DNA of 64,000 nucleotides. Source: Trypanosoma brucei (lineage: Eukaryota). Position 1 is the stretch's first letter. Every line of letters begins with the position of its first letter. Made by a program: the position numbers and the translations under genes. The stretch covers positions 1,280,001 through 1,344,000 of the forward strand of contig CM000208.1 of NCBI GenBank assembly GCA_000002445.1. The letters are read 5' to 3'. The notes under the pieces were generated by a model that ran no database searches, had not been told where the DNA came from, and saw only the letters and a program-made list of their open reading frames with translations. This document shows positions 1-48,681 of this stretch, one piece after another.

Positions 1-1454
1 AGGGACAATACAAGGAGGCCATACAAGTATACACAGACGCTATTAGATGCGACCCGGAAAACAATGTTCTCCTATGCAATCGAGCTGTTGCCTACTTACT
101 CAACAACCAGTACAGGCTCTCTCTGATGGATTGTGAGAATGTGCTTTACAACTCACCAACCAATCTTAAGGCTCACTGGCGCGCCGCGAAAGCACTTCTG
201 TATATGTATAGGACGAAAGAGGCACGGTATCACTACCGAAAGGCCAGTGAGCTTTCTACCAACGCGGCTGATGAGCGGCTAATAGCCGATGAACTGGAAC
301 TTCTTCATTCGGTGGAGATGTACCACAGCTGCAGTAAGGAAAAACACTGGTCAAAGTGTTTGTGGCACGCTAAACAACTTCTTCAAACTTTTAGCCACAT
401 CAGCCCAATAAATATTCCGTGGCATTGCCTGAAACTTGAGGCCCTTTTGCATTTAGACTGCTGGAAAGCATTGGAGGGTGTCAAGCAACTGAAGAAGAGC
501 CATCCGACGTGCGCCGAGCTGTTCTTTCTCCATGCGAAGAGCCTGTTTTACTGCGCACACAATCAGCGCAGTGTGGCGGAGGCTCTAGAGCTGGTTCGGC
601 ACGCAGTTGAGCTGAAAAAGGCTGACGGAGAAGTAGAGGATAGCCGTTATATCGCCTTAGAGCGCAACCTCACGTTATTTGAGAGATGTCGTGATCGCGG
701 TAATGCGGCATATAAGAGCGGAAACTGGTCAGAAGCATACGATGCGTATACTTCCTGCATTTCGATAGATCCACAGAATACTTCACTTGTTGCAATGGCA
801 TATTGCAACCGCGCAGCAACATGTATGCAGTGTGGCCGCTGGGCTGAGGCGCTGGAGGATGTCAATAACTCTATTAGCATCAACGGCACGGCACCTAAGG
901 CATATACCCGGAGGGCTCACATAAACATCCATTTATTTAGCGAAAAAGGTGGAACAGATATACGCCTTCTTAAACAAGCTGTTAGCGACCTCCGCACGGT
1001 AGTAAAACTTGAGCCAAGCAAAGCAAACAAGCAGCATCTGGATGAGGTCGTTAGAATGACACAAGAAAAAGAAAAACAGATACAGCGCGCACACAATGAT
1101 AATTGCAACCGCTATGGGTCTGGCAGCGAGCGCCATGACTGGCGTGGTAAAGGACATCAAAAACATTCTAGCTCTCCTGGTGCCCAGCATAAAGCTGAGG
1201 GCCAAGACAATCGACGACCATCGGTTGCGACCGCATCACACTCTAGAGCTCAACTTGTGCGGTTGTTGGGGTTGGAGACCACCGCCAATTTGGATGAACA
1301 GGCACTTGTGAGGGCATATCACAAGGCTGCACTTCAGTGGCATCCTGACAGGTGGGTTGGGGCACCCAAACATGAACAACAGGTAGCGGAGCAAAAGTTT
1401 AAGGAAATCAATGTTGCGTATCAAGCGTTGAAGCAGGTGATCGGCAATCGTTGA
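1..1454 (+). CDS. TPR-repeat protein with a C-terminal J domain (DNAJC7/TPR2-like co-chaperone). It is 5'-partial: the reading frame is open from nt 3 to the window edge.
   Basis: The translation frame starting at nt 3 is open into the track ORF 126..1454. It carries repeated TPR-like W/LG/Y/A/F/A/P spacing, for example AYKSGNWSEAYDAYTSCISIDPQN and AYCNRAATCMQCGRWAEALEDVNNSISIN. The C-terminus has a J-domain signature with an HPD tripeptide (YHKAALQWHPDRW ... KFKEINVAYQAL). Confidence 0.8.
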   Translation, partial: GQYKEAIQVYTDAIRCDPENNVLLCNRAVAYLLNNQYRLSLMDCENVLYNSPTNLKAHWRAAKALLYMYRTKEARYHYRKASELSTNAADERLIADELELLHSVEMYHSCSKEKHWSKCLWHAKQLLQTFSHISPINIPWHCLKLEALLHLDCWKALEGVKQLKKSHPTCAELFFLHAKSLFYCAHNQRSVAEALELVRHAVELKKADGEVEDSRYIALERNLTLFERCRDRGNAAYKSGNWSEAYDAYTSCISIDPQNTSLVAMAYCNRAATCMQCGRWAEALEDVNNSISINGTAPKAYTRRAHINIHLFSEKGGTDIRLLKQAVSDLRTVVKLEPSKANKQHLDEVVRMTQEKEKQIQRAHNDNCNRYGSGSERHDWRGKGHQKHSSSPGAQHKAEGQDNRRPSVATASHSRAQLVRLLGLETTANLDEQALVRAYHKAALQWHPDRWVGAPKHEQQVAEQKFKEINVAYQALKQVIGNR

Positions 1455-3189: not shown

Positions 3190-4137
3190 ATGGGCTCAAT
3201 GGTAATCGGAGGTGACCGCAAGTCAATCTCCTCGGTCGAACCCCTCACGGCCCTTCAATCGAGTAACGCAACACCCAACAAGGTCAATCAGAGGCCAACT
3301 CCCTCACAGAGGGAACAAAAGCAGGAGACGTCAAAGTCACCGCTTGTTATGCGGGCAAATGCAGCTGCTGATGTGCATCAGTGGCCAGATTTTTCGGGAT
3401 TCCGTGAGAGGAACGACATCTTCAACACCAGTAGTTTACCGCGCTCCCCCAATCAGAAGCAAATGGACACTCATGCAGAGAATAACAGTAAAGCAGAACT
3501 TACCTCACCGGCAAGTGAAGGTAGTGGACGTGTGATGGAACGAAGCATGACAGCGGCGGTATCCGCTCGAACATTTAGTGACGACAGAGTGTTAGATGAT
3601 GAATCTGATATTGACATCGTCATTCACATGCCAACACATTACCAGCCGGGCCCACCGGCACAGATCCAGGAGAAGGAGGTCGTGTCATCATCATCCCCTA
3701 GTTGCAACACAGGTGTCGCACTGTCCACCAACGAGGTGCCCTGTAGGGACATTATTAATTCAGCGGAAAACGAGAAAGTTTCCTTTACTGGGGCATGTCA
3801 GCAAAAAGAGATTGCCCATCTAAACGAATTTGTTGCAGTGGTAAAGGAGGCTGTAGTGAAAGCTGTGGTTGAAATTCCCGCATCGCCAAAGCCTCAACGT
3901 CGACCTCGGTTGACCCGGGCACTTCTCAACAGGACCAGGGAAGTTACCTTTAAGCCGTACACCATCGAGGAGTGGCTGGGGGGCGTACAACTACTTGGGG
4001 ACCAACCGGCTGCGGTTAAAATTTGTTCAGTGGAGAATGTTATACTCACGGCCACGATAGCGACAATGAAGGTGGAGGATCAGTTCACCGGAAGCAACGG
4101 ATGCACCGATGCTAGATTGGAGGAGTCCACTAACTGA
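3190..4137 (+). CDS. Hypothetical protein with a Ser/Pro/Gln-rich low-complexity N-terminal half
   Basis: 315-codon ORF in the same orientation as all neighbouring genes. A polypyrimidine tract plus AG lies upstream at about 3135-3165. I recognise no homology. Confidence 0.45.
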   Translation: MGSMVIGGDRKSISSVEPLTALQSSNATPNKVNQRPTPSQREQKQETSKSPLVMRANAAADVHQWPDFSGFRERNDIFNTSSLPRSPNQKQMDTHAENNSKAELTSPASEGSGRVMERSMTAAVSARTFSDDRVLDDESDIDIVIHMPTHYQPGPPAQIQEKEVVSSSSPSCNTGVALSTNEVPCRDIINSAENEKVSFTGACQQKEIAHLNEFVAVVKEAVVKAVVEIPASPKPQRRPRLTRALLNRTREVTFKPYTIEEWLGGVQLLGDQPAAVKICSVENVILTATIATMKVEDQFTGSNGCTDARLEESTN

Positions 4138-4227
4138 ATAAATGATACTCTGCTGCTGGAACTTACCAAATGGGATTTCTATTGATACAATCTTAGTTTA
4201 AGGCAGCCCTTTGAATCAAATATTTCT

Positions 4228-4572
4228 GCAGCTTGAAGTTCCCGTGTATTTTCTGAGGGCGAGACATTTATAACGTAAAAGTGGTATTATTTTCAGATAC
4301 ATCGCCTCTTTCCCTCTATCTCTCTTTCTCTGGCGGACGTTTATTTTTGTTTTATACACACCTCCAGTGGTAATTTTTTTTTCTTGTATTCTCTGCGTGC
4401 TGAAGTTCCACTTTGTTCCGTTCCATGTTATAGAGTAGTGTGAACTCAAATGTGTGAGGGAAATAAGAGCTGTCTGATTATCTTCTGTGTGTGTTTGTGT
4501 TTGTTCGGGAAGTTCACGTGCAGAAGTTTATGCGTTACATTATTTTGATACCACTGTATTATTGAAATACCT
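4228..4572 (+). repeat. Copy A of a ~350-bp dispersed repeat (copy B is at 13724..14093). It contains an internal (TG)n tract.
   Basis: Long stretches are identical to 13724..14093, including gaagttcccgtgtattttctgagggcgagacatttataacgtaaaagtggtattattttcagatacatcgcctctttccctctatctctc and tgtgaactcaaatgtgtgagggaaataagagctgtctgattatcttctgtgtgtgtttgtgt. Both copies give the same spurious minus-strand ORF peptide HYSITWNGTKWNFSTQRIQEK in the ORF track. Confidence 0.85.
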
Positions 4573-5586
4573 CACAGCACACAACTGTTTCCTCCATTGA
4601 TGTCTTGTTTCCGCAAGCATATTGATGTATGATACACATTTTCCATCTATTGTTCCTTTCCGTGGTCTTGTAGACAGATCAGCAATATCGTTTTTCAATT
4701 CTTTAACGTTCGGACAGCTAACGTTATTGTTATTGTCATTATTACTATTTTCGTTGATATATATTACGTGGGTTAAATTGTTGTAACCCAGGAGTACTCG
4801 TTCTGTGGATTTTGAGTTATTTTTTCCCCCTTTAACCCACTAGGTTTTCTTATTTTCTTCTCGTTTCTCAGATCGCGTCCATGGGTAAGAAAATGTGGCA
4901 AGGGCGGAAAAGGGAAGGGAGAGGGATGCGTAAAAGAAACGGAGAATTTAAACTGAATGTAATGATGGGGGAATCAGTTCTGTAGAAATAAACAAGTGAT
5001 TCATCACTTTTTTTTTCAATTTGTCAGTGCTTGTTTGTCTTTTTTCTTTCCCTACTTTAGTTTTTTTTCTTTTTATTATTATTTTTTGATAGCCCTATAT
5101 CCCACCCTTTCCTTCCAGACCCCCTTTTCCCAGTTGTGGATGTGTTATATATTTTTTTTCCTTTTCTTTTCCATCTTTGTTGGTACGTACTCGTGCACAT
5201 CGTCACATGCTGCGAATGGTCTCTAAAAGCAGAATTTAGAGGGAATTGGTGACGGATTGTGGAGAGACATGTGAGGCGTGTGCATTTTTTTTTATGTCCA
5301 TAACCACGCGCGTGTGTGTTTCATATATCTATTTATGTGTTTAAGTACCAGGGGGGGGAAAGAAGGGCGGGAGAATAAATAAATAAATGAAAAACAGATG
5401 AAAAGAGTGTCAAAGTTGATGAGAGAAATGACAAAAGAGACTCGAATGTGATTTGTTACTTTATCTATTTATTTGCTGTTTATTATTATTTTTTAACTTG
5501 TGTGTGCGTTTGCATCACTAAAACGTGAGCACAAGGGGATGAGTTGTCAGTGGCAGAGCCGTGAAGGAAAGGGGCACTATTTGACG

Positions 5587-5607
5587 TATATATATATATA
5601 TATATAT
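5587..5607. repeat. (TA)n microsatellite
   Basis: Direct read. Confidence 0.95.
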
Positions 5608-6685
5608 TCAATCTTACGTTTTATGATAACAATATAAAGTTATTATTACCAATGCTACCATTGTTTTTTCTCCATGTGCCGTCTTAAACCCTTGTGAAAC
5701 GTCTTACAGCTCATGAAAGGGTGGCGGAAGGGAAACGAGAATAAATAACTTTTTCCTCTAACCGTAGTATTTGGTTTGCGCCCCACTACAGCCCCCCTCT
5801 TATACTTTTTCTTACCTTTTTAAAATTTTGTTTCAGCAACGTGGTAGCGCAGGGCACGAAGTGTTGCGTTGTGAACGGTCGCTCATTGTGCTACCAAAAC
5901 GATGGACAGAAGCGTATGAACACAGACGGACAAAAAATAATATATGTATGCATTTGTGTGTTTGTTTATGCCTTGTAGTCTATAAATGTAAAAGCAGTTA
6001 TGCACCTGATTCTGTTCGAAGTTGCTCTATAGGATCAGTGTGAGATGGAGTACTCGTGAGCAATACGGACACTAGTAATAATAATCATAATCACGATAAT
6101 TATGGTCGCAATTTTTATAAATTCTTCTCACTTGTATATATAAATATGTAATTGTTTACTCGCATGTGCAGGAGGACATACTCCTCAGGTATGGAGAGTG
6201 GTGAAAGACTCTGCCGTGGGGCGGGGGCTGCCAAATATTTGCGTGTGTGTATGGGCAGGTGTGCTTTGAGAAAAGGAAATGATGGATTACGGGAAACAGG
6301 TTGAATGATTCAATACCCCAATAACACTTACCGATGCTATTCAAACCTCTTCATCCAAAAGGGAGTGCATATATGATTTCCAACTTATTTTTTTCTCATT
6401 TTTATTCCTATTACCATTACTATGATTATTATTTCAAATCACTATGGGCACTTTCTTTCGGCTCAGTGTCAATTTGCATTTTATTTTTGTTTCTCAGTTT
6501 GTTAAGCAATGCAATACACTCGTTCCTGCGTCGTAGTGATAGTTTACTGCAGTATTCCCTCGTAGCTAAAAGATATGCACCTCCAACTTCATTGAGGGGA
6601 GCGCATGAGGCTAATTTATGTCTGCTCGTGGGAAGTACCCAGCGTAATAGCCCTCTCCATTGTTTGCTGCTCAGCCGTGACTGAT

Positions 6686-6780
6686 GATTTTTTTCTTTCT
6701 CTTACTCTTACTTTTCTTCTTTGTGTTGGTTTCTTGCCATTATAGGTTACAGCCGCTATTTTTTTTTTTTTTTTTGATAA
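6686..6780 (+). promoter_or_regulatory. Polypyrimidine tract, a candidate trans-splicing/polyadenylation signal upstream of the 6921 CDS
   Basis: ttttttctttctcttactcttacttttcttctttgtg ... ctatttttttttttttttt, followed by AG dinucleotides. Confidence 0.5.
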
Positions 6781-6920
6781 GGCCCTGCAAAGGGGATCGT
6801 AAGCGGAAGGGGTATACGGTGCGATTTGTTTGAGCGGGCCGTTCCTCTGCTTTATATTTCCTTCAGTTACCGTTCTTTTAGTGGAGGGGGGCACCTTAGC
6901 ACGAAGGGGAAATATAGGGG

Positions 6921-8216
6921 ATGCAACACATTAACCATAGATTCAGTTACTTCATAGATAACTACATTCTACTACTTGCAGAGCGGTTTGGTATTCCACT
7001 CAGCACTGAGGCCCCTTCAGAACGCAGCGGCGGTGACGACGTTGACGATATCGATGGGAGCGGTCTCGCGAAATGGGAGCAAGTTGCCGAATGTGTGCGG
7101 GAGGCGTTGAGTCGCCCGAAGACGGCAGAAGAGCGCCAAGCGCTTCTTCACGTCGACGTGAGTATGCTTGATGCAAAGGTTTGCCGCGGGAGGTTGCAAT
7201 ATCTCATATGGCAAGCTGAAAGGTCGGTGGAGGGTGGGGTTGGGGAGAGGATAAAAGGAAAGGAATCACCATCCTTTTCGGTATTTAATATCACACGTGA
7301 CTCACTACGGGACAAAATTCAGGGCATATATGCCTCGGTTCGGGATCATTTACCGAGCACAATCGCCCCTCGACGCAACCACAACGGGAATTCCACCGGG
7401 CCCGCCGTTCAAAGTGGTTCACAGGGAGATAAGGACGTTATGGATTACGATAGTGACGGTGACGGAAGCGAAGGCAGTCTTCATGTCGTTGATGTCGTTT
7501 TGCCAACGGAGGCGGAGGCTCGGCGTAACCGAGTGGTGGCGGAAGCTCGTGATGATCTTCTGTCGAAGATACAAAAAATGCAACTGGATTTCTTTGAGAA
7601 GCATAGACGATGGGTGGACGTTCCCTTCGATTTCGACACTGTTCCTAACGATGGTAGTGGGCCTGAGGAAACATCCCCTCAATCGGACAGCACTGGACTT
7701 TCGAAATCCGCCGCGCGAGAGGCACTGGAAAATGGAACTCCAACTCGGTTACCACCCAGTAGTGAGATGCCAGAGCCCACAATGCGCAACGAACTTGCAG
7801 GGGAATCTGATGGCCCTAAACTTGATCCGATAATGAGTCTTTTCAACGCCCTGCGGGAGGACCGTCGCGTCGGGCGCCCACCACGCCCTTCTCAAATGAG
7901 GGAAGAGGATTACGAAAAGCAATACGTGCATGCCTCAACAATGCCCTCCGCCCCCGCTGGGTTTCCTAATGCATTGGATGGACAAACTATCCGCCGTTTC
8001 AATGGGAGGCCGAGCACTGAGTCCGTGCGAACGCCGGAACCCGAAAAGCCGGCGAATGAGCCTCTGCCCATCAAGAACACCATCAGTAATGGCGGCGCCG
8101 TGACACATGAGGGGCGCGCACCACAGCTACGGGCAAATAGGTGGAATGTTGTGGAGTACGACGGTGAGGATAGCTCTGAAAGTGAGAGTAGCACCGATGT
8201 AGAATGCGTGACGTAG
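6921..8216 (+). CDS. Hypothetical acidic protein with Asp/Glu/Ser-rich low-complexity stretches
   Basis: 431-codon ORF on the + strand, preceded by a strong polyY tract. I recognise no domain. Confidence 0.45.
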   Translation: MQHINHRFSYFIDNYILLLAERFGIPLSTEAPSERSGGDDVDDIDGSGLAKWEQVAECVREALSRPKTAEERQALLHVDVSMLDAKVCRGRLQYLIWQAERSVEGGVGERIKGKESPSFSVFNITRDSLRDKIQGIYASVRDHLPSTIAPRRNHNGNSTGPAVQSGSQGDKDVMDYDSDGDGSEGSLHVVDVVLPTEAEARRNRVVAEARDDLLSKIQKMQLDFFEKHRRWVDVPFDFDTVPNDGSGPEETSPQSDSTGLSKSAAREALENGTPTRLPPSSEMPEPTMRNELAGESDGPKLDPIMSLFNALREDRRVGRPPRPSQMREEDYEKQYVHASTMPSAPAGFPNALDGQTIRRFNGRPSTESVRTPEPEKPANEPLPIKNTISNGGAVTHEGRAPQLRANRWNVVEYDGEDSSESESSTDVECVT

Positions 8217-10068
8217 GTGAAGGGAAGGTTGTAGGCCTCTTCCCCTAATAGGTCATTACTTTCCGCTCTTATGACTCACCAGGTAACCACTTTTCTTTTT
8301 CTAGGGATGAGGGTCAGTTCACTTCCTCCCTGACTTACTGCGTCTTGCGTGTTAATATACCTGAGCCGTTCGGGATGTCGTCCGTTGGCGCTTTTCCGCC
8401 ACGAGGGCCTCATGCATTCACACACGAACTACGCAGAGATATAGATGGTAGGTGAGTGAGGTAAGGCGGGTCATGCGGCGTGTGGGTTACGAGGCGCATG
8501 GGGAGGGGGGAAGAAAAAAGGAATGCGTATGAAATAAGAGTGGAGTGATGTAGTTAATAAAGTTGTGGAGGCAGGGAGGGTACATCAGCACCCGAACAAT
8601 AGATCTTTCGTGCATGCATGTGGGGGAGTTCCTTCGTATACATCTGCGCTGTCATTATTACTGAGAGGGATGCTTGTTTCATCAAGTGAATTTGAAGTGG
8701 GCCGGCGAATGGACAAACCAGTGGGTTTGTGTGACGGTTAGTGACTTAAACTTAAAACAATTTCACGGTGTGTGCGCACCCTGAGGCTAACATGCGCCGC
8801 GTTGTTCTTCAACAGTTGCACCACTCAGTGTTCCGAAAAGAACGTTTCAGAATCACCCCTATTTTTAATCCATTTCTTTTTCTCAACTTGTGCGAAAAGG
8901 GTATTATTTTTGTCTCATTTACTTTTCCCTAGTGTCCTGTATCGGTGGAGGGGGACTGCTCCTCCAGAACACGTAAAAAATGGGGACTTAGGAATCACGA
9001 AGGATTAGCTCTTGATGGTTAGAGCTACACACTGTAGTATAATATGCTATCGGCCCCTAATAACTATAAGTTATAAATGTGGAGCGCAAGTTCTCGTAAA
9101 GCAGTTCGTCTTAAAAATGCTAGTGGTTGAGTGTGTGTTTGTGTGTTTGTGGGGATAGTCGGATCCACACCAAAGAGAGAAAGTTGTGAAGAGAGGCAGC
9201 AGCATCACTTGTTGGATGGTTATCCCTGTCACCAAACATATCCAACATTCCTCAGAGGCCGAGGTGCGGTGTGCTCACGATTATTGTGGTCTGCAAGCTG
9301 TTTATGTGCGTGAAAGCCCCCACTTTTTTTTTTGTGCTGCCGTAAGCGGTTTGGCCACTTTGGTCGATGTGACACGTGTATGTGTGTGTGCGTGGTGAGC
9401 ACCTCGTTATGGGAAACATCGATGACTTGTATCTGCGTGTGCTGCTGCTTGGGGGTTGTTGGGACACTTTTTTTTCGGAGGTGGCAGCCACAGTGGTGCC
9501 ACGGAGTTGCATTATTCAACTGGCAGCAGTAGCGGGGACGTCGGAGCCGTGTCCCTACACCTTTTCGTTGACCCTTTGCAACCGTTGGTGAAGGCGATGA
9601 GATCCGTAAAGCCCTCTGTTTAGGGGTTTCTTGTTTTTATATGCATTGCGCGTACGATAGTTTTAGTTTTACGACCATTCTCTGACCCGCAGATGCGTAA
9701 ATGGGGCCAGCATACTGAGAGAACACCGAAGGGTCACTGTTTTAACGCGGTGTGACTTTCCCTCAAGCTTCCTTATTCTGCATTGTGTTATCCTCGTCAA
9801 TAATTCGGAAACGCTCTCAATTATTTTGCTTTTTGCTTTGTTGGCACCGCCGTCGCCACCTGTTGGGGACGCACCGGTGACTACTTTTCATTCGTGCAGG
9901 GGAGGGGACTGGAAGGCGTAGGGACATCGTGGCAGTTGCTTAACTGTAGTTCAGAAGGGTCGCACTCAGGAAGGCGCCAGAAGTGTGAAAGGTGTTGGAA
10001 CTGCGGGACCGTTTACGAGAGGTAGAGATCCCTGAGGTGTTCCTTTTCCCACATTTCAGTTAGGAGAT

Positions 10069-11571
10069 ATGAACCCGTCCTATTTGAATCAGATATTGAG
10101 TTACCCCCAACGCGAATCGCTAATTTCGGAGTGCCCCGCGCTTGCACTCCTCTGCTATCAGGAATTAGTGGCTGCCTTCCGCAAAGGGAAACGCATTGCT
10201 GATCCGCTGTCTTTGAGGGATGATGTCACAGTCCTACTTTCCATTGGATCGTTGCATGAACTGACGGACCGGATTTTCTCAGCTGCACCGCATGAATCCG
10301 CTTTGCCTCCTCTCTGGTGTACGCTTCGGAAGGCTCTTGAGTGTGCCTGGGACCCCAGAGGTGATGGTGAGCGACAATGTGAACTAACGATGGTGGGTGG
10401 GAAACTCCGATTTTACAAGAAAAAATGTGATAGGATGCCGCTTGCACAGTCATCAATGCGGAACGCACTTAATATGAGTAGAACACGCATTCGAGAAGTT
10501 ATTGCCTGTGCCCTATCGGGTTCACTGGAGCCCCTTGGAGGGAGACGTAACGAGCCTATCGCTGCATTACTTCAGTTTTCCCGCCTGATCCCACCACCGT
10601 CGGAAGAGCGGGTCGTCACCTCTGAAGGATTGGCATTTTGCATGCAGCCCCTTCAACAACAGTGGTGGACATTAGTATCTGTTGTGTTAGATCGCGCACT
10701 GGCCATAATGTCGGGTAAAGGAGTCTCACGCGCCACTCTTTGGCAGCTTCTAGCTGTTCTGTTTGCACTTAACACAAGTGATTATGTTTACTTGTTTCCT
10801 TCAAAGGATGATGACCTTGAGGCCTTTCAACTGCTGGCGCGCCTCTCGGAGGTCGGGTTGGTTTACCCCCTTATTTGTAACGGAGAGAAATGCTTTGTGC
10901 TTTCTCCCCACTTCCACCACGCCATATGTTGGAGTTCTACACCATCGCTTTGCACAGCGGCATTGCTGGACGACACGAGGGGTCCATCGTCTCGTCTACG
11001 GCGGGAGGATGAAGATACTATCATCACTGAAACAAATTTTCGACTATACGCATACACGAAAAATCCTGACATGCTGCGCATTCTTGATCAATTTGCGGTA
11101 AAGGAAGTGGATGTGGTGGGAATGGTTGTATGCTACAGGGTGACACGAGCATCATTTGCAAGTGCACTAGCGAAAGGCATAGGCGCAAACCATATATTGC
11201 AATTTCTTACGGTGAAGGCACATCCTTCTATGATCAAGCAGAGCAATAGTGAGGCTGGTGACCCGTCGTGCCCGGTTCTCCCCGCTGCTTCTGTGGGATT
11301 CGGTAATACATCTGAATATCGTCAGGGAAATATTATACCACAATCCTTTTGTGATCAACTGTTCACGTGGGAGAGGGAATGCCGAAGACTAATTTTTCGT
11401 CACGATGTGGTGCTGTTGAAAAATATCGGGAAAGAGCAGATGGAAATAATCTTAAACTGTCTTTCAAATAGTGGGGAACAGCACGCCGTGGTGCATCGCG
11501 AGAGCGGTACTTTGGCCATTGAACAGGAGGTTTACACGCGTGTACTGTCCAATTTCATTACTCCGGATTAA
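10069..11571 (+). CDS. Probable general transcription factor TFIIH subunit p52 (Tfb2/GTF2H4 family)
   Basis: The segment DTIITETNFRLYAYTKNPDMLRILDQF matches the Tfb2/p52 hallmark motif (ETNFR-x-YAYT), as I remember it. A downstream ...DQLFTWERE... resembles the conserved DQIRLWE region. The length of 500 aa is typical of p52. The polyY tract and AG at 10035-10062 give an acceptor just upstream of the ATG. Confidence 0.65.
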   Translation: MNPSYLNQILSYPQRESLISECPALALLCYQELVAAFRKGKRIADPLSLRDDVTVLLSIGSLHELTDRIFSAAPHESALPPLWCTLRKALECAWDPRGDGERQCELTMVGGKLRFYKKKCDRMPLAQSSMRNALNMSRTRIREVIACALSGSLEPLGGRRNEPIAALLQFSRLIPPPSEERVVTSEGLAFCMQPLQQQWWTLVSVVLDRALAIMSGKGVSRATLWQLLAVLFALNTSDYVYLFPSKDDDLEAFQLLARLSEVGLVYPLICNGEKCFVLSPHFHHAICWSSTPSLCTAALLDDTRGPSSRLRREDEDTIITETNFRLYAYTKNPDMLRILDQFAVKEVDVVGMVVCYRVTRASFASALAKGIGANHILQFLTVKAHPSMIKQSNSEAGDPSCPVLPAASVGFGNTSEYRQGNIIPQSFCDQLFTWERECRRLIFRHDVVLLKNIGKEQMEIILNCLSNSGEQHAVVHRESGTLAIEQEVYTRVLSNFITPD

Positions 11572-12056
11572 TGACATCAGAGGTAACGACATGAGTGCTG
11601 CTCTTGGAGTTCGTTTCTACCTGTTTATTCTTGGTGTGTGAGTGAGCGCACGCGCATTGGTTCCCTTACTACAGTGGTCGGGTCGCGGTTGGGGGCGTGG
11701 TGGCCGCTTGGGTGCCGATTCCGTTTCCTTTTTTCCCCCCTCCTCCGCGGTGCCAGTAACGCGAGGGATCGGCTTGGTCTCCATCTGCGGTGTGTATTAT
11801 TCGGTAAAAAAAAAAATAATAATTCGACCTTAGCCTTTTTCCAGTGGAAGGGGTAAAGAAGATGTGTCTGTCATGTGTGTTTGCTCGTTTTTGAACGCTG
11901 TTGCTTATGCTTGAATTGATGTATACCTCATTTCCCCCCGTATTGTAATTGTTCATTATTAACAACAACAATAAGGCTCAGTGAAGGTGTAACGGCTGGT
12001 TCTGGGCTGGCCTGCGGCGTCGATCCCTTCCATTTGACCATTTTAGCGACTCGGCG

Positions 12057-13400
12057 ATGCGTAGGGGACCACAATGGTTTATCCAGAGCCGGTCACGTGA
12101 ACGGTTTCACCAGTTATGGCCATGGGCACTTGGGGGCGTATGTGCCACTTTGTACTTCTTCAATCGCGAGCCTTTTGAAGAAATGGCTGGTACTGTGGTA
12201 ACTAAGATACGGAAACCCCTACTCAAGACGATGGAATGGATTGAACTGCACGATGTGGACCCGGAGACGATGGCGCTGGAACTTCCTCCTGACGTGCTTT
12301 TTGGCCCCTTGGAGTTCTCAAAGCAGATGCGATTCCTAATGGCTGCGCTACGGGCTGATAATGAACTTGCCGATGGGTATCTTGCTCGTGTGCTGGTGGA
12401 TCATATGGATCTTTCTCTCGATCCACCATTGCTCACGGAAAAGGAAATTCTCGAGACAGGTGGGAGGCAGTTGCTTGACTTTGCCATTGAGGATTTTTTG
12501 GGTGCAGGTTCTAGGAAGACTCGGAAGCATATATTCTTTAGGCCAGACCAATTTCTTCGTCTTATAAACTTTTTAGCCGTTTATCCGTCATTGACAAACT
12601 ACTTTGTGAAGGAACGCAACGGTGTGGACATGATTTTTCGCGCGCTACGGCACAGCAGCGACGAATTCGCACGTGTTCTGGCGCTTCGCAGCCTATGTCT
12701 ATTCTGCTTTACGCAGCGCGAAGACGGCGACGTGGAGCGGCGAATAATGCAGGCGAATGGTGTTGAGCAAATTGTGAAAGCTTATAAGCAAAGTACGGGT
12801 GACCCAACCGACACAAGGTACATCACCTTACTCGTCTCTTCCCTGTTGCGCCACTATCCTCTAGAGGGCGGAAAAGAATTTGTTGAGGCTGATGGCATTC
12901 AGGCAGCTGTTGACAACTTGAATATTGCTCGGTACAAGGGCATACCTCAACATGTGCGAGTTCTTCATGATGCGAAACGACTCCCACCAGCGGCCATTGG
13001 CGGGAGGTCCATCAATTCGCGCATTGAGGATGCTGACTTTATTCCTATAGCGATGGGTCTTCTTGATGCCTTTCCTGAATTCTACGAAGCTTCTAGTGAG
13101 ATATTACTACTACTACGAAGTATTGTACCGTCGTGTGCGAGTCCGTTTAACCTTTTGGAGTATCGTGCTATGCCTATTTTATCAAAATATTATGTGCGAT
13201 GGCAGAATGACACCGTTTTTCACACGGATGGTACGCTCCAGTTGTTGGTGGAACTGTTTAAACTAATGTTAGAGGACCCGACGTGCCAGCGCTGTTTTGA
13301 CCCGAGTGTGGCGTCATATGAGTTGCAGGAGTGTCTGCGGACCGCACGCGCGGCAATTGAAGCGGAATCATCCAAACCTGTGGTGCAACCCACACTTTAG
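12057..13400 (+). CDS. Hypothetical conserved protein, possibly helical-repeat or ARM-like. The true start may be a downstream Met, for example the Met of ...EEMAGTVV....
   Basis: 447-codon ORF on the + strand. A polyY tract lies upstream at 11700-11760. I recognise no diagnostic motif. Confidence 0.5.
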   Translation: MRRGPQWFIQSRSRERFHQLWPWALGGVCATLYFFNREPFEEMAGTVVTKIRKPLLKTMEWIELHDVDPETMALELPPDVLFGPLEFSKQMRFLMAALRADNELADGYLARVLVDHMDLSLDPPLLTEKEILETGGRQLLDFAIEDFLGAGSRKTRKHIFFRPDQFLRLINFLAVYPSLTNYFVKERNGVDMIFRALRHSSDEFARVLALRSLCLFCFTQREDGDVERRIMQANGVEQIVKAYKQSTGDPTDTRYITLLVSSLLRHYPLEGGKEFVEADGIQAAVDNLNIARYKGIPQHVRVLHDAKRLPPAAIGGRSINSRIEDADFIPIAMGLLDAFPEFYEASSEILLLLRSIVPSCASPFNLLEYRAMPILSKYYVRWQNDTVFHTDGTLQLLVELFKLMLEDPTCQRCFDPSVASYELQECLRTARAAIEAESSKPVVQPTL

Positions 13401-13723
13401 TTTGTGCAGAAATTGATTTGTGTTTTGCGTCTTTTTCCGTTTGGATAAGGGAATATGAAAAGTGGAAGAGGGCGCAACGGACGGTGAAATTGTTAGTCAC
13501 CGTGTTAATGTGAGGTGACCATCCTCCCTTTCCTTTTATTTTTTGTATTTTTTTTTTTCGTCATCATCTCTTTTGAGCAACCTGACACGACAGATGTGTG
13601 TGTGTGGGAACACGAACAGGAGCGAAACAAAAGGAATAATAGAGGAATAAAAATATGATGAATTGCATTTATTCCATGATAGTCAACAACAGACAAGATA
13701 ATTCTTAAACGTCTTGATTTCGA

Positions 13724-14093
13724 TATTCCTGCATCTTGAAGTTCCCGTGTATTTTCTGAGGGCGAGACATTTATAACGTAAAAGTGGTATTATTTTCAGA
13801 TACATCGCCTCTTTCCCTCTATCTCTCTCTTTCTCTGGCGGACGTTTATTTTTGTTTTATACACACCTCCAGTGGTAATTTGTTTTTCTTGTATTCTCTG
13901 CGTGCTGAAGTTCCACTTTGTTCCGTTCCATGTTATAGAGTAGTGTGAACTCAAATGTGTGAGGGAAATAAGAGCTGTCTGATTATCTTCTGTGTGTGTT
14001 TGTGTGTTTGTGTGTTTGTGTTTGTTCGGGAAGTTCACGTGCAGAAGTGTATGCGTTACATTATTTTGATACCACTGTATTATTTAGGTATTA
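13724..14093 (+). repeat. Copy B of the ~350-bp dispersed repeat, with a longer (TG)n/(TGTGTTTG)n tract than copy A
   Basis: See copy A. The internal microsatellite tgtgtgtgtttgtgtgtttgtgtgtttgtgtttg is expanded relative to copy A. The flanks diverge beyond about 13724 and about 14093. Confidence 0.85.
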
Positions 14094-14291: not shown

Positions 14292-15104
14292 ATGAGCAGT
14301 TCTGAACACGATAGTCGTGTTGCGTACTGTAAGGAGCATAATGTGCATCATCTCTTTGAGCTCATGGCTTCCAGGTTGCTAGTTGAGCGCCCCGAGAACC
14401 CTTTTGAATACCTTCGGGAGTTGCTGGTCACGGTGGAGAACTCCAAGAAGCAAACAGCACATGATCCCACAATGCTTCCGTCGTCGCCATTGGGGGCGAA
14501 GGACAAGCTGACGAAGATCACAATAGGCACATTTGGTATTGAGAATGCCGGCAAAACAACGATCATTTCTGCTTTGGGAGGAAATATTGAGAAGAATCCT
14601 ATGCCTACCGTCGGATTCACTCCTACAAGATTCCAGACGGATAGGTGCGATCTTTGCATCTTCGACCTTGGCGGAGGCGCCAACTTTCGAGGAATTTGGG
14701 TTCACTATTTCCACGACTGTCATGGTTTCATGTTCGTCATCGACTCTGCAGCGGATGATGCGGTTGTGGAGGAATCCCTCAATGCACTTCGCACTGTAGC
14801 GCAGCACAAGCATGTGCGTGGCAAGCCGGTGCTGGTGCTGGCTAACAAAAAGGACTTAAAGAGTAGCAGAGGCGTTGAGATTGTTTCTGAAGGCCTCTTG
14901 GAGGAACTCTTTGGGGATGTTTCTCTCTACCATCTAGTGCCTTCATGTGGCATTGAGGAGGATCCTGAACTGGAGAAGGGCGTTGATTGGCTATTGACGA
15001 AGATACAGAAGGAATATACTCACATTGATAAGTTGGTGGAAAGTCAGACGCTGGAGGTAAAAATGGAGGCGGAACAAAAGAGGAAGAAGTTGCTTGAAGA
15101 ATAG
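14292..15104 (+). CDS. Arf-like small GTPase with an N-terminal Dpy-30/RIIa-type dimerisation/docking motif and a C-terminal coiled coil. Its switch II is atypical, DLGGG in place of the DVGGQ found in Arf proteins.
   Basis: P-loop GIENAGKTT, switch II DLGGGANFRGIW and NKxD motif LANKKDL (shown as read from the sequence). The N-terminal ERPENPFEYLRELL resembles the Dpy-30/RIIa core ERPPNPIEFLASYLL. The C-terminal tail EVKMEAEQKRKKLLEE is coiled-coil-like. Confidence 0.85.
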   Translation: MSSSEHDSRVAYCKEHNVHHLFELMASRLLVERPENPFEYLRELLVTVENSKKQTAHDPTMLPSSPLGAKDKLTKITIGTFGIENAGKTTIISALGGNIEKNPMPTVGFTPTRFQTDRCDLCIFDLGGGANFRGIWVHYFHDCHGFMFVIDSAADDAVVEESLNALRTVAQHKHVRGKPVLVLANKKDLKSSRGVEIVSEGLLEELFGDVSLYHLVPSCGIEEDPELEKGVDWLLTKIQKEYTHIDKLVESQTLEVKMEAEQKRKKLLEE

Positions 15105-16356: not shown

Positions 16357-19300
16357 ATGACTTTAATTCCTCAAAACCCCTACCGAATGAGTTTCAGCAG
16401 ATGTAATAATGAGCGAAAAGCTTCAATTCCCTTGCAACCGACCAACACGAATGGGGGGATCAGTGCTGATAACACTGGTGTAGATCTTAAAGCTCATCGT
16501 GTGACTCCATTCACCACCACATTTGGACGGAGACACACCCTATATGGGGAGACAGAGATACGCGAGGCAAAGGAAACTTTAGCAAAGTTATTTGTGCCAG
16601 TGGCAAAGTTGGGAATGTACCGGCTGCGAAGAAGTAGACTGCACAAAAAGAATTCAGAGCTTCGGAGCTACACTATCGACTCCATTGTTCAGGCATACCG
16701 GAGTTCCAACTCAATAATCTCCACTTGGCCTATGGACGTGCTAACCTTGCTTGCTGAGGGAGCACAGTATCACTACTTAGAAGATGGCGAGGTGATTGTA
16801 TATGCGAGGGAATGGTACTTGTCGACTGGAATTATTGTTGTTCTCTTCGGTGAGGTGCAGGAGACGCTACCAAAATCTGAGAAAAACTTCACACCGAATA
16901 AGACGTCTGGTAACATACGGCACCCTGAGCGTTCCGTTTTATGCGAACAAACCGTTCTCTGTAGGGATTTTGCACCTTCGCGTCTAAAGGCGCACGGTTA
17001 TGCCGATGTAGCAGTAATACCCGCTCGCTGGGTTTGGGATGCCATCAATTACACCTCAATGGAGCCATTTGCTGAGGGGATGCTAGACTCTTTGAGAATG
17101 ACTGTTGCACCATTATGTGAAAGCGTTTTGGAACGAACGTACTTTCCCACCGCGTTGACGCTTCGTCGCAGTTGGCTTTGGTCTTTCTTCAGTGCAGGGG
17201 AGCGAATTCGTCTCGCACGCCTCATGGAGGTGAAGGTGTTTTGCGCTGGCGACACCCTGTTTGGTGAAGGGGACCGTAATCCGTACGTGTACATCATTCG
17301 CCGCGGTGCCGTTCGGGTTGTGGTGTGCAAGGAGCCCATTTTGGACTTTGGCCCCGGCGCAGCCTTCGGCGAGGTGAGTGTCATTTTTGATGAACCACGC
17401 TGCTGCCATGCGATTGCCACGTGTTTATGTGAAGTTTACTGTTTGCACCGTCGTCACATTATGAAGCGACTCAGGAAGAAGGCGCACGTGTGTGATAGCG
17501 TGATTGGAACAGCCCTGAGAAGGCGTGAGCAGTGGTTGGAGGACGCCAAGACAAGGCACGTGATGAGCCTTACTGTTTTGTTAGGAGGCGTCCCCTGTCT
17601 CAGTCAGGCGACAGAAAAGGTCCGAGCGGCCATAGCGGAGAAGGCCAAAACAGTGGTGCTGCCCCCGCGACAAGTGTTATTCAAAAAGGGAACCTTGTGC
17701 GATCATCTTTTCATTGTGGGGCGGGGAACCCTCTTAATGGAAGGTGCTGAAGATACTGTAGCGACTCGTACGTCAACGGGGTTTGTGGGTGAGTTGTTTC
17801 TCCATCCGCATTTGTGGCCCACAGACGTTACCTCCCTCACATCTGTTGATGGCTGGATGTTCCACGTTGATGTAGTGAAGGATGCGCTTGATAGCATAAA
17901 CGCAAGGGAACAGGCAGTTGACATATGCCGTCAGGGGATTGAACTTTATCGCGCTCAGTACGGGCCGGAAAGTGTTATGGAGCCAACCCCTGCACCCCGA
18001 AAGTTGGGTCCCGCGCGTAAAGGCACAACTGCCTTTTCTTCGGGGGCGAAGCAGTCAAATTCACTCCGTCAGAAGGGGCAACCCAGAAGTCCGTCACTTC
18101 CCAGCACGCCAAGGCTTGTAGCGGTAGCGAAGACTACTCCTGTGAAGGAGGAGCCACTGGAGAAGTTTGATTGGAACGCGTATGCAATCGAGGATAAGGT
18201 AGCGCTGCCCTCAGCGGACACGGATGAAAGTGATAAGCGCAGTGAACGGCAGCAGACCGAGCATGTCATTGAGGCTGAACTCGGTGGGCAGGCGGGGAGT
18301 TTGTTGTCCGCTGGTGTAGGGCTAGGAATTAGTGCTATTGACTGCGACTTTTCTGATGAGGTGGATGAGATGCGGCAAATGTTACTTGAGCAGGCCCTTC
18401 TAATACCTTCAAACAGACTACTGTTCTTCCTCAGGCAAATAAATCGCAGCAAGGTTACATTGGTGGTGGACGACGGTGCCGTTGTGACGGGAGAGTGTTC
18501 GTTAGAGACAACCGTGGGTGACGATCTGACGTTCCCCCAGTACGTCTTACCGCCCTCTGTTGTGTACACTTTAGACAATGTGAACACTTATAATGTGGAT
18601 GGCGCGCCATTTAACGGGGAGGACGTGCTAAACGACACCAACCGACAGTTAGCAGACGGAGTCGGTACGACTGCGCACCGACGAGCACGCACTCCCGAAG
18701 TTGCTCTTGTGACACCAGATTTTATGTCAACGTTTCGCTCCACCGATGAAATGGCAAATACAACCTTAAAGGGGCAACAGTTTGGCGGCCTTTCATTGTT
18801 CCTGCGGTCCGGTCGTCCATGTTCGGGGCTCAGTGGTAAGCACCATCTACAGCATTCATCGTCCCTTTATGGGACGCTGCGGCGTAGGAGTCTTAGCGGG
18901 GTGAGCAGAAATTATACTCCTTATCCCCAAACTCCTTTTACGCCTGATGTACACGGTTCGACACAGTACAGTTTCTCTAACATATACACAAGACTCAATA
19001 GCGTGGATTACACACAACAAGCGAAAATCACAGCTTCTGCACTCCAGTCTGCTCTTGATCGTTTTGTGAAACTGGACGACCAAAATTACTTTCAACAAGT
19101 GGTGCGTGTCTGCTTACCAACAGAGGCAGAGCAGCAGTTGATTACGGAAGAGGTTGGTAGTGGTGGTAAGAGTAGCTGTGACTTGATACTACTGCTGATG
19201 CACGTTAGGAAGTGTGAGGGCCTCCAGCTAAGTGACGATATGCAGTACCCTATTGTGAAGGTTTATACCAAGACGCGCGTCCTCATCAGAACGCCAATTA

Positions 19301-37391: not shown

Positions 37392-37394
<3 letters not shown>

Positions 37395-37424
<30 letters not shown>
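37395..37424. repeat. (TA)n microsatellite, about 15 units
   Basis: Direct read. Confidence 0.95.
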
Positions 37425-37436
<12 letters not shown>

Positions 37437-37678
37437 ATCTATATTTCTTCACTTATATTTATGTATGTACATCGGCTACAAAGAGAAATAGGAAAGTCGC
37501 GGCTCGTAGCGGTTGACCCTCTCTTTAGTACCGAAAGAAGGGGAAACAGGATCTTAACGTTACAAGTGACACTGAAACAACCACAACGCTTGCAAAATAG
37601 GTATTTCTGCGCATTTGCAGGTATTCTTTTGTGTGAAAGGGAATTTTCTTCTCTGCCTCACTGTGTGTTGAGTCAACC

Positions 37679-48401: not shown

Positions 48402-48675
48402 ATGTGGTAATGTATGCGTCATAACTAAGGCTGAGGGCGTTTACTTCGCTTTTTCTTTAGGTCTTTTTTTTTTGTTGCGTATCCTTCTCCCACTTGAGAC
48501 TATTTTTTTTACTCAAAGGAGGAAGACGGAAATGTTCGGAAGGAAGTTGTGGGTGGAAGAGATAGTAGTGAAGAGGAACCGGTCTCAAATGAAATTTGGA
48601 AATGTGTGCCATCCCCGTTTTTGGGCCTGTGCGTAACATATTTGCTCTCATAAATGATGCTAACATATGAGTACA

Positions 48676-48681
48676 TATATG

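What the first reader, a model, noticed from the sequence alone, without database searches (positions are those of the whole stretch)
4228..4572. Near-identical ~350-bp dispersed repeat placed downstream of two unrelated genes (second copy at 13724..14093)
Two copies lie about 9.5 kb apart in the same orientation. Each begins shortly after the stop codon of an unrelated gene: about 90 nt after the 3190..4137 ORF, and about 325 nt after the 12057..13400 ORF. They are nearly identical over about 345 nt. The only difference is the length of an internal (TG)n/(TGTGTTTG)n tract. The flanks on both sides are unrelated. This is not a duplicated gene, because the upstream coding sequences differ. It does not look like a simple microsatellite either. 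Its position and conservation suggest a shared 3'UTR cis-regulatory module, a small non-coding RNA, or a short non-autonomous retroposon relic. The sequence identity implies recent transposition or gene conversion.
Basis: seen in the sequence. Interest (0 to 1): 0.6.

Follow-up and report, generated by a model that had tools for sequence, protein, structure and literature searches.

The report
Low-copy intergenic direct repeat, gene-converted
Two copies of a ~350-bp non-coding stretch lie 9.5 kb apart downstream of two unrelated Trypanosoma brucei genes; DNA copying between them (gene conversion), not shared function, keeps them alike, and such low-copy repeats are already known in trypanosomatids.

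Summary
The window is T. brucei TREU927 chromosome 10 (1,280,001-1,344,000). Copy A (4220-4563) and copy B (13723-14084) are direct repeats. They differ by 5 substitutions, a 2-nt indel and a 16-nt TG-tract indel. Their boundaries are sharp and their flanks unrelated.

Both copies and all four junctions also occur in T. b. gambiense DAL972, and three of the four junctions in T. equiperdum OVI. Four sites differ between strains but are shared by both copies within each strain, so the copies are homogenised by gene conversion. Between strains the repeat diverges faster (2.8%) than neighbouring intergenic DNA (1.15%), so its identity does not reflect purifying selection.

It has no coding potential, no Rfam match and no ingi/RIME/SIDER hallmarks. 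Two published T. brucei transcript lists record no separate transcript over it.

It meets every criterion of the low-copy intergenic repeated sequences that Ubeda et al. 2014 catalogued (773 in T. brucei) as recombination substrates. One assembly (IVM-t1) shows the predicted recombinant junction, which may be an assembly collapse.

The repeat carries a long polypyrimidine tract plus AG, so a role in RNA processing is possible but untested. Genome-wide copy number could not be checked. This is an ordinary new member of a known kind, and interest is low.

The parts
4220..4563 (+). Repeat copy A (344 nt). It starts 82 nt downstream of the stop codon of Tb10.70.1930 (ORF 3190..4137).
13723..14084 (+). 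Repeat copy B (362 nt). It starts 322 nt downstream of the stop of Tb10.70.1890 (ORF 12057..13400) and ends 207 nt upstream of the Arf-like gene start (14292).
4305..4331 (+). Uninterrupted 27-nt polypyrimidine tract inside copy A, followed by AG at 4366-4367. Together they look like a trans-splice acceptor signal.
   Evidence: processing rules from Kolev 2010
13808..13836 (+). The same polypyrimidine tract in copy B (29 nt), followed by AG at 13871-13872.
4486..4505 (+). TG-rich microsatellite (TGTGTGTT-type) in copy A, 16 nt shorter than in copy B. The length varies by strain, not by copy: DAL972 copy A has the long form.
13991..14026 (+). TG-rich microsatellite in copy B. It lies in the zone (13961-14016) where polyadenylation of the upstream mRNA is predicted from the Arf gene's likely splice acceptor (AG at 14138-14139).
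   Evidence: inference
4226..4244 (+). 5' arm of an imperfect internal inverted motif, CTGCAGCTTGAAGTTCCCG. It pairs with 4506-4523 in the predicted fold. It is not at the termini of the repeat.
4506..4523 (+). 3' arm of the inverted motif, CGGGAAGTTCACGTGCAG.
4564..13722 (+). The 9,159-bp interval bracketed by the two copies. It carries p431 (6921..8216), TFIIH p52/Tfb2 Tb10.70.1900 (10069..11571) and Tb10.70.1890 (12057..13400). It is the unit that recombination between the copies would delete or circularise. It is absent at this position in the IVM-t1 assembly and is a separate 9,257-bp contig in T. equiperdum OVI.
3190..4137 (+). Tb10.70.1930, a 315-aa orphan gene found only in Trypanozoon, upstream of copy A. 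It is expressed (7.9 RNAs per cell in Kolev 2010 Table S6).

Best explanation
The element is a low-copy, non-coding, intergenic direct repeat. About 350 bp of inter-CDS DNA was copied once between two sites 9.5 kb apart on chromosome 10, before T. b. brucei, T. b. gambiense and T. equiperdum diverged. Which copy was the donor is unknown. Copy A lies in a region that T. vivax lacks at this position, next to a gene with no homologue outside Trypanozoon, so B to A is my guess.

Since the duplication the two copies have been kept nearly identical by repeated ectopic gene conversion, which is homologous recombination between them. Selection on a function is not needed to explain the identity.

Both copies lie in one plus-strand polycistron and are transcribed by read-through. 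By position, most of each copy should fall in the 3'UTR or the poly(A) zone of the upstream gene.

At the DNA level the pair is a substrate for homologous recombination. Unequal exchange or single-strand annealing between the copies would delete or circularise the 9.16-kb interval that holds three genes.

Shown: the duplication, the sharp boundaries, the concerted evolution and the lack of constraint. Inferred: the origin by a single templated or ectopic copying event, the UTR location, and the deletion or circle outcome.
For: - **Repeat and flanks.** Two copies only in 64 kb, E = 6e-161, with flanks that give no alignment above shuffled controls out to 1000 nt on the left and 300 nt on the right.
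- **Age.** Both copies, with identical junctions, are in DAL972, and three of the four junctions are in OVI contigs. The duplication therefore predates the Trypanozoon radiation.
- **Concerted evolution.** Of the 2-2 informative sites, 4 group by strain and 1 groups by copy; that one sits beside an indel. At most 0.1 parallel sites are expected if the copies evolved independently, so P(>=4) is at most 4e-6. Within-genome divergence between copies is 5/344 and 8/360. Divergence between orthologous copies is 9/344 and 11/360. Differences between copies cluster at the edges, and the centre is homogenised.
- **No constraint.** TREU927 versus DAL972 divergence is 2.84% in the repeat, 1.15% in other intergenic DNA and 0.60% in CDS; Fisher p = 7e-4.
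- **Non-coding.** The indels break every frame. A six-frame query finds nothing among 5.8 billion proteins.
- **Not a known RNA.** No Rfam family matches. No separate transcript is catalogued over either copy.
- **Fits a described class.** Ubeda et al. 2014 screened for non-coding intergenic repeats of 0.2-2.5 kb at >=85% identity on one chromosome. They found 773 in T. brucei and confirmed rearrangements by PCR at the four pairs shown in their Figure S8. This pair meets every criterion.
- **Predicted recombinant product.** The IVM-t1 scaffold has one repeat copy with A's left flank and B's right flank, and lacks the interval.
- **Local remodelling in the T. brucei lineage.** T. vivax has no p315 gene here and only about 1 kb between DnaJ and p431. 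T. cruzi has an unrelated 330-aa ORF upstream of its p431 orthologue. Neither outgroup locus shows similarity to the repeat.
Against: - Genome-wide copy number is unknown, because no T. brucei genome could be searched by DNA. If there are many copies, a single local duplication is the wrong origin.
- A 4-nt TATT flanks both ends of both copies. This could be microhomology from templated repair. It could also be a short target-site duplication of an uncharacterised mobile element.
- The repeat contains the longest polypyrimidine tract found by my scan of either intergenic region, plus an AG 35 nt downstream of it. Applying the median 142-nt poly(A)-to-splice-site distance to that AG puts a poly(A) site at the 5' boundary of the repeat in both copies. 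That coincidence hints at a self-contained RNA-processing unit, which a purely passive reading does not explain.
- The IVM-t1 junction may be an assembly collapse. The assembly was built from MiSeq reads plus about 7,500 PacBio reads, it has a redundant overlap nearby, and the missing interval carries TFIIH p52, described as essential. Real deletion or circle formation at this pair is therefore not shown.
Confidence: 0.6

Rival explanations
1. The repeat is a functional RNA-processing or regulatory cassette shared by two mRNAs. Its polypyrimidine tract and AG, possibly with the TG tract, would set polyadenylation of the upstream gene and trans-splicing downstream. The cassette would have been copied to give the newly born orphan gene Tb10.70.1930 a working 3' end, or to co-regulate the two mRNAs.
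For: - A 27-29-nt uninterrupted polypyrimidine tract with an AG 35 nt downstream is present in both copies. It is the longest such tract found by my scan of either intergenic region. The median tract is 18 nt and starts a median of 43 nt upstream of the splice site.
- Subtracting the median 142-nt poly(A)-to-splice-site distance from that AG gives 4225 and 13730. These lie within 7 nt of the repeat's 5' boundaries at 4220 and 13723.
- Copy A follows a Trypanozoon-specific gene that is expressed.
- The two mRNAs have similar abundance, 7.9 and 9.8 RNAs per cell. This is weak evidence.
Against: - The repeat evolves faster between strains than neighbouring intergenic DNA, so there is no sign of purifying selection.
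- Its similarity is explained by gene conversion.
- No novel spliced transcript starting inside either copy appears in Kolev 2010 Table S7 or in the nanopore lncRNA list. Multi-mapping reads may have hidden one.
- Polypyrimidine and TG tracts are common throughout T. brucei intergenic DNA.
Confidence: 0.18
2. The repeat is a member of an uncharacterised dispersed or mobile repeat family. It would be a non-autonomous element, not of the ingi clade, that inserts at TATT, with further copies elsewhere in the genome.
For: - The boundaries are sharp and the flanks unrelated.
- TATT is present at both ends of both copies.
- There is an internal imperfect inverted motif.
- The size is in the SINE/MITE range.
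Against: - There are only two copies in 64 kb.
- There is no poly(dA) end, no 12-bp target-site duplication and no Pr77 signature.
- The inverted motif is internal, not terminal.
- The two copies lie only 9.5 kb apart on one strand, which suits local copying.
- The repeat gives only low-complexity matches to the single 21-kb T. vivax and T. cruzi loci compared.
- To my knowledge, no class II elements have been reported from the TriTryp genome analyses. This rests on my own recollection.
Confidence: 0.1
3. The repeat encodes a small or long non-coding RNA gene present in two copies.
For: - It is not coding.
- It sits in transcribed DNA.
- It contains a possible splice acceptor.
Against: - No Rfam hit appears even at E <= 10, apart from chance-level matches far below the gathering scores.
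- Fold z-scores are -1.5 to -1.7 on either strand.
- It is not in the novel-transcript or lncRNA lists.
- Substitutions are not depleted.
- There is too little variation to test covariation.
Confidence: 0.05

Closest known systems
Low-copy intergenic repeated sequences ('RAGs') of Leishmania and T. brucei (Ubeda et al. 2014, PLoS Biol, PMC4028189)
   Same: It is non-coding and intergenic, 344-362 bp long (screen range 0.2-2.5 kb), and 94-98.5% identical (threshold >=85%). Both copies are on one chromosome in direct orientation and bracket a few genes. Recombination between such repeats gives deletions and circles. That paper reports 773 such repeats in T. brucei and PCR-confirmed rearrangements at the four pairs shown.
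   Different: This particular pair is not among the four T. brucei pairs shown, which were on chromosomes 2, 3, 6 and 7. No list of the 773 is held, so I cannot confirm that it was catalogued. Stable amplification is not expected in T. brucei. The only sign of rearrangement here is one doubtful assembly (IVM-t1). The concerted evolution shown here was not part of that study.
SIDER / TbSIDER / RIME retroposons of the ingi clade, including the 3'UTR-resident regulatory SIDER2 of Leishmania
   Same: It is a short non-coding repeat lying downstream of unrelated genes in a trypanosomatid, probably within 3'UTRs.
   Different: It has no 76-79-bp Pr77 signature, no poly(dA) end and no 12-bp target-site duplication. 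It is 344-362 bp, against about 500 bp for RIME (my own recollection, not checked here) and 570-600 bp for SIDER. The copies are nearly identical, whereas TbSIDERs are highly degenerate.
SIRE, the short interspersed repetitive element of T. cruzi (VIPER-derived). This comparison rests on my own knowledge and was not tested.
   Same: SIRE is a repeat of about 430 bp found in intergenic regions and UTRs. It can supply trans-splicing and polyadenylation signals to neighbouring genes, which is the role the rival reading proposes for this repeat.
   Different: SIRE is present in thousands of copies and derives from a tyrosine-recombinase retroelement. No reference sequence was available to compare. 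The repeat gave only low-complexity matches to a 21-kb T. cruzi locus, which is not a real test.
Concerted evolution of tandem gene copies in T. brucei, for example the ribosomal protein S18 pair in this same window
   Same: The process is the same: gene conversion keeps paralogous stretches nearly identical, with sharp edges beyond which the sequence is unrelated.
   Different: In the S18 pair the homogenised stretch is the coding sequence, and the copies are adjacent (719-bp period). Here it is non-coding DNA 9.5 kb apart, behind unrelated genes.

Membership tests
Trypanosomatid low-copy intergenic repeated sequences (Ubeda 2014 screen) | Non-coding and located in intergenic DNA | tested here: met
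   Both copies lie between annotated CDSs. The indels break every reading frame. A six-frame query finds no protein hit.
Trypanosomatid low-copy intergenic repeated sequences (Ubeda 2014 screen) | Length 200-2,500 bp and identity >=85%, with both copies on the same chromosome | tested here: met
   The copies are 344 and 362 nt. Identity is 93.9% counting gaps and 98.5% over aligned bases. They lie 9.5 kb apart on chromosome 10. The criteria are quoted.
Trypanosomatid low-copy intergenic repeated sequences (Ubeda 2014 screen) | A detectable rearrangement junction (deletion or circle) formed between the copies | tested here: inconclusive
   The IVM-t1 scaffold has the A-left/B-right junction with a single copy. 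That assembly is weak, and the lost interval holds TFIIH p52, described as essential. Gene conversion shows that the copies do interact.
ingi-clade retroposons (ingi/RIME/SIDER/DIRE) | 76-79-bp 'Pr77' signature at the 5' end | tested here: not met
   The full 77-nt L1Tc Pr77 (sequence from PMC1874656) aligns to either strand of either copy with scores near the shuffle mean, and 105 or more of 300 shuffles do at least as well. The first 15 nt have no match within 3 mismatches in or near the repeat. GC content is 36% in the first 77 nt, against 61% for Pr77. Caveat: the T. cruzi sequence was used as a proxy for the T. brucei consensus.
ingi-clade retroposons (ingi/RIME/SIDER/DIRE) | Poly(dA) stretch at the 3' end | tested here: not met
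   Both copies end ...CCACTGTATTATT. Neither end has an A-run or T-run on either strand.
ingi-clade retroposons (ingi/RIME/SIDER/DIRE) | 12-bp target-site duplication | tested here: not met
   The best flank-to-flank matches are 11-12 nt with 2-3 mismatches. They overlap the repeat ends and are AT-rich. Only the 4-nt TATT is shared exactly.
Known structured RNA families (Rfam 15, which I recall includes trypanosome snoRNA families) | A covariance-model match at the family's gathering score | tested here: not met
   There are no hits in the 64-kb window at gathering thresholds. At E <= 10 over 4100..4700 there are only three chance-level hits of 12-16 bits, against gathering scores of 50-65.
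MITE-like DNA transposon | Terminal inverted repeats at the element ends, plus a target-site duplication | tested here: not met
   The only inverted motif (4226-4244 and 4506-4523) is internal; its 3' arm ends 40 nt before the repeat end. TATT at both ends of both copies is compatible with a 4-bp target-site duplication, and equally with microhomology.
SIRE/VIPER of T. cruzi | Sequence similarity to the SIRE consensus | not tested
   No reference sequence was available. The lack of similarity to a 21-kb T. cruzi locus is uninformative.

The most novel reading that the evidence does not exclude
The repeat is a self-contained, portable RNA-processing cassette: poly(A) zone, polypyrimidine tract, splice acceptor and a short non-coding exon. 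It would have been copied behind a newly arisen Trypanozoon-specific gene and so given that gene its 3'-end formation signal. This would be a concrete example of how polycistronic trypanosomes equip de novo genes with processing signals. It might also belong to a small, undescribed mobile family that inserts at TATT.
Probability: 0.12. Interest if true: 0.5.

Novelty: new member of a known kind. Interest (0 to 1): 0.2.

Why it matters
This is mainly a clean worked example, not a discovery. It shows that near-identity of dispersed non-coding DNA in T. brucei can come entirely from gene conversion. The repeat in fact evolves faster between strains than its surroundings, so conservation between copies should not be read as evidence of function.

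There is also a practical side. Repeats of this size break or collapse short-read assemblies. The OVI contigs end inside the copies, and the IVM-t1 scaffold lacks the 9.16-kb interval that carries the essential TFIIH p52 gene. Gene losses inferred from such assemblies need to be checked against this kind of repeat.

If the processing-cassette reading were true, it would bear on how new genes acquire 3'-end signals in polycistronic genomes.

Tried and rejected
**Genome-wide copy count (not achieved).**
- No DNA collection offered holds a T. brucei genome.
- An exact 39-mer scan of JGI metagenome contigs found nothing, which is uninformative.
- An exact look-up of ten ORF translations from the repeat found none in the 15-billion-protein collection.
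- A six-frame polyprotein query found no called ORF in any indexed assembly. The plan to reach Logan contigs through ORFs therefore failed.

**Look-ups that gave nothing.**
- Exact-protein look-ups of four window proteins were not on record. The T. congolense orthologue has no contig on record, so the nearest outgroup could not be examined.
- Poly(A) and splice sites for the flanking genes: Kolev 2010 Tables S4, S5, S12 and S13 are truncated in the held copy. Siegel 2010 and Guegan 2022 have no held supplements.
- Searches for the old gene ID Tb10.70.1930 and for guessed modern IDs found no paper.

**Ideas considered and rejected.**
- Larger decayed segmental duplication: rejected, because 40-1000 nt of left flank and 40-300 nt of right flank align no better than shuffles.
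- Protein-coding micro-gene: rejected, because the indels shift every frame.
- tRNA, snoRNA or another known RNA: rejected.
- The CGTG at positions 24-27 of the repeat resembles the Pr77 downstream promoter element at +25 to +28. I treat it as coincidence, because the full Pr77 shows no similarity.
- Positional orthology between p315 and the T. cruzi 330-aa ORF: no detectable similarity.
Full report
**1. What is there.**
The window is Trypanosoma brucei brucei TREU927 chromosome 10.
- The 315-aa ORF 3190..4137 is exactly EAN77936 (Tb10.70.1930). The 447-aa ORF 12057..13400 is exactly EAN77939/XP_822767 (Tb10.70.1890).
- Kolev et al. 2010 Table S3 places the CDS of Tb10.70.1860 at Tb927_10_v4 1,296,357..1,301,465. 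That CDS is window ORF 16357..21465. The window is therefore chromosome 10 positions 1,280,001..1,344,000.
- All genes in this stretch are on the plus strand. In order they are a TPR/DnaJ gene (126..1454), Tb10.70.1930, copy A, a 431-aa gene (6921..8216), TFIIH p52/Tfb2 Tb10.70.1900 (10069..11571), Tb10.70.1890, copy B, an Arf-like GTPase Tb10.70.1880 (14292..15104), and a 1702-aa cNMP-binding/C2 protein.

**2.
- The repeat finder, MAFFT and BLASTN agree on two same-strand copies: A at 4220..4563 (344 nt) and B at 13723..14084 (362 nt). The match has E = 6e-161, and nothing else in the 64 kb matches beyond low-complexity hits.
- The copies differ by 5 substitutions, a 2-nt indel in a CT tract and a 16-nt indel in the TG tract.
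- The boundaries are sharp. Local alignments of 40-1000 nt of left flank and 40-300 nt of right flank score at or below shuffled controls. The only exception is the 2000-nt right flank (score 20 against a shuffle maximum of 17). I did not inspect that alignment and assume it is low-complexity sequence. The pair does not look like the homogenised core of a larger decayed duplication.

**3. It is not an assembly artefact, and it is old.**
- T. b. gambiense DAL972 has both copies with the same four junctions (L002/L006).
- In T. equiperdum OVI the interval between the copies is a separate 9,257-bp contig. It begins 49 nt before the end of copy A and ends 50 nt into copy B. The next contig starts inside copy B. 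This is how a short-read assembler behaves at a repeat, and it confirms three of the four junctions (A-right, B-left, B-right).
- The duplication therefore predates the split of these Trypanozoon lineages.

**4. Concerted evolution, not constraint.**
I aligned TREU927 A and B with DAL972 A and B.
- Four sites (alignment columns 129, 223, 275, 277) have one base in both TREU927 copies and another base in both DAL972 copies. Only one site groups by copy, and it sits beside an indel.
- If the copies had evolved independently since a pre-split duplication, at most 0.1 identical parallel changes would be expected. P(>=4) is at most 4e-6.
- Copies within one genome differ less (5/344 and 8/360) than orthologous copies between genomes (9/344 and 11/360).
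- Differences between copies sit mostly near the edges of the repeat, and the centre is homogenised. This is the usual footprint of gene conversion.
- Between TREU927 and DAL972 the repeat diverged by 2.84% (20/704). The other intergenic DNA of the same region diverged by 1.15% (88/7629) and CDS by 0.60%. Fisher p = 7e-4. Four of the 20 differences are the same event counted in both copies. Even so, substitutions are clearly not depleted.
It is not evidence of a conserved function.

**5. What it is not.**
- *Protein-coding.* The longest ORFs are 77-95 aa and differ between copies, because the indels shift frames. None of ten ORF translations is in the 15-billion-protein collection. A six-frame query found nothing among 5.8 billion proteins.
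- *Known RNA.* There are no tRNAs and no Rfam family at gathering scores in the whole window. A permissive scan gives only chance-level hits. Predicted folds are unremarkable, with z of -1.7, -1.45 and -1.55.
- *Separate transcript.* Kolev 2010's complete table of novel transcripts lists only Tb10.NT.53 (window 8900..9754) in this window. A 2023 nanopore direct-RNA list of novel lncRNAs has no entry with coordinates in the two repeat regions. Multi-mapping may have hidden reads, so this is supportive and not conclusive.
- *ingi-clade retroposon.* The defining features, quoted from the TSIDER1 paper, are a 76-79-bp 5' signature, a poly(dA) end and 12-bp target-site duplications. SIDERs are about 570-600 bp and degenerate. 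The repeat has no poly(dA) and no 12-bp duplication. It shows no similarity to the full 77-nt Pr77 taken from PMC1874656; scores are near the shuffle mean on both strands. The first 15 nt of Pr77 have no match. A CGTG at repeat positions 24-27 mimics the Pr77 downstream promoter element at +25 to +28. Without the rest of the signature I treat it as chance.

**6. What it most resembles.**
Ubeda et al. 2014 screened trypanosomatid intergenic DNA for non-coding repeats of 0.2-2.5 kb at >=85% identity on one chromosome.
- In Leishmania, direct repeats of this kind give extrachromosomal circles and deletions.
- In T. brucei the authors found 773 such repeats (1,848 potential amplicons). They obtained PCR products, confirmed by sequencing, for the predicted rearrangements at the four pairs shown in their Figure S8, on chromosomes 2, 3, 6 and 7.
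- The present pair meets every criterion of that screen. At 773 repeats per genome, about one pair in a 64-kb window is what one would expect.
- I could not check whether this pair is on their list, because no T. brucei table is held.

**7. Recombination product?**
- The chromosome-10 scaffold of T. equiperdum IVM-t1 (GCA_003543875.1) carries a single repeat copy. It has copy A's left flank and copy B's right flank, and the 9,159-bp interval is absent at that position. The arithmetic fits exactly: the p315-to-Arf gap is 652 nt, which equals 82 + 362 + 207 plus one.
- Its variant pattern is A-like up to alignment column 352 and B-like after that. This is the product expected from crossover or single-strand annealing between the copies.
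- However, the assembly was built from MiSeq contigs and only 7,508 PacBio reads, which were merged and discarded if unaligned.
- The scaffold has a 100-N gap followed by 7.6 kb of redundant sequence just downstream.
- No IVM-t1 accession appears in the cluster of the 447-aa protein.
- The missing interval carries TFIIH p52. TFIIH is described as essential for spliced-leader RNA transcription.
- I therefore rate a collapse, or a heterozygous allele, as more likely than a true homozygous loss. I count this evidence as inconclusive.

**8. Origin (inferred).**
- In T. vivax the TPR/DnaJ gene is followed after about 1 kb by the p431 orthologue. In both T. vivax and T. cruzi the order from there on is p431, a cation-efflux gene, Tfb2, p447, then Arf. 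The DnaJ gene is not within the T. cruzi locus fetched.
- T. brucei has 5.5 kb between DnaJ and p431. That stretch contains Tb10.70.1930, which has no homologue outside the Trypanozoon cluster, and copy A.
- Copy B sits in the syntenic p447-Arf spacer. This makes B to A the more natural direction, but it is not proven.
- Both copies are bracketed by TATT on each side. This fits a microhomology-primed templated copy. That trypanosomes lack classical end joining and rely on microhomology-mediated repair is my own knowledge, although it is consistent with the abstract listed. A 4-bp target-site duplication of an unknown element fits equally well.
- No similarity to the repeat exists in the T. vivax or T. 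cruzi loci.

**9. Possible RNA-level role (inferred, untested).**
Kolev 2010 gives the following figures: a median polypyrimidine tract of 18 nt that starts a median of 43 nt before the splice site, a median poly(A)-to-downstream-splice-site distance of 142 nt (interquartile range 123-178), and a median 3'UTR of 388 nt.
- The Arf gene's likely acceptor is the AG at 14138-14139. This predicts polyadenylation of Tb10.70.1890 at about 13961-14016, inside copy B at its TG tract. Most of copy B would then be 3'UTR.
- For copy A, the next strong tract with an AG after the repeat is at 4853-4871. This predicts a poly(A) site near 4690-4750, so the whole copy would lie in the Tb10.70.1930 3'UTR.
- The repeat itself carries a 27-29-nt uninterrupted tract with an AG 35 nt downstream of it. 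If that AG were used, the upstream poly(A) site would fall at about 4225 and 13730, which is at the repeat's 5' boundary in both copies.
- That coincidence keeps alive the idea of a portable processing cassette. The substitution data and the transcript catalogues argue against it.

**10. Verdict.**
The element is best filed as one more low-copy intergenic direct repeat of the kind already catalogued in trypanosomatids. It is maintained by gene conversion and shows no evidence of selected function. The main open point is the genome-wide copy number, which these tools could not address. Novelty: new member of a known kind. Interest: about 0.2.

Noticed in passing
window 52146..52607 and 52865..53326: This is a tandem pair of 40S ribosomal protein S18 genes (Pfam Ribosomal_S13) with a 719-bp period. 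The coding sequences plus about 25 nt downstream are nearly identical, with 3 differences. The 5' and 3' flanks are unrelated. Concerted evolution is confined to coding DNA here, the mirror image of the finding.
   Followed up: partly
window 8217..10068; L008 5218..6507; L009 4356..5606: T. vivax and T. cruzi have a cation-efflux (CDF) gene between the p431 orthologue and Tfb2. T. brucei has none at this position, and tblastn finds no remnant. The 1.85-kb gap instead contains Kolev 2010's novel transcript Tb10.NT.53 (window 8900..9754). The gene was lost or relocated in the T. brucei lineage, inside the interval bracketed by the repeat.
   Followed up: partly
L001 (T. equiperdum IVM-t1, CM010681.1) 9431..9792 and 19356..20813: The IVM-t1 chromosome scaffold lacks the 9.16-kb interval carrying p431, TFIIH p52 and Tb10.70.1890. 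It also has a 100-N gap followed by 7.6 kb that repeats sequence already present. A 2026 preprint (10.64898/2026.06.15.732286) interprets absences in IVM-t1 as 'core erosion'. This locus looks like a candidate false deletion caused by a collapsed repeat.
   Followed up: partly
window 3190..4137: Tb10.70.1930 is labelled 'T. brucei spp.-specific protein' or 'kinesin associated protein' in different records. It has no homologue outside its Trypanozoon cluster among 5.8 billion proteins and no Pfam domain, yet it is expressed (about 7.9 RNAs per cell in Kolev Table S6). T. vivax has no room for it. T. cruzi has an unrelated 330-aa ORF at the same position; the T. brucei protein begins with MGS, and the T. 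cruzi ORF has an internal MGS at residue 25.
   Followed up: partly
window 4226..4244, 4402..4409, 4506..4523 (and the equivalent positions in copy B): The near-palindromic motif GAAGTTC(C) occurs three times in the repeat. Together with CTGCAG/TGCAG it forms an imperfect 19-nt inverted pair that closes the predicted fold. It is internal rather than terminal, and its significance is unknown.
   Followed up: no
window 37364..37478 and 48650..48750: Long (TA)n/(TG)n microsatellite blocks show up as the top 'inverted repeats' of the window. They are low-complexity sequence and not a structured element.
   Followed up: no
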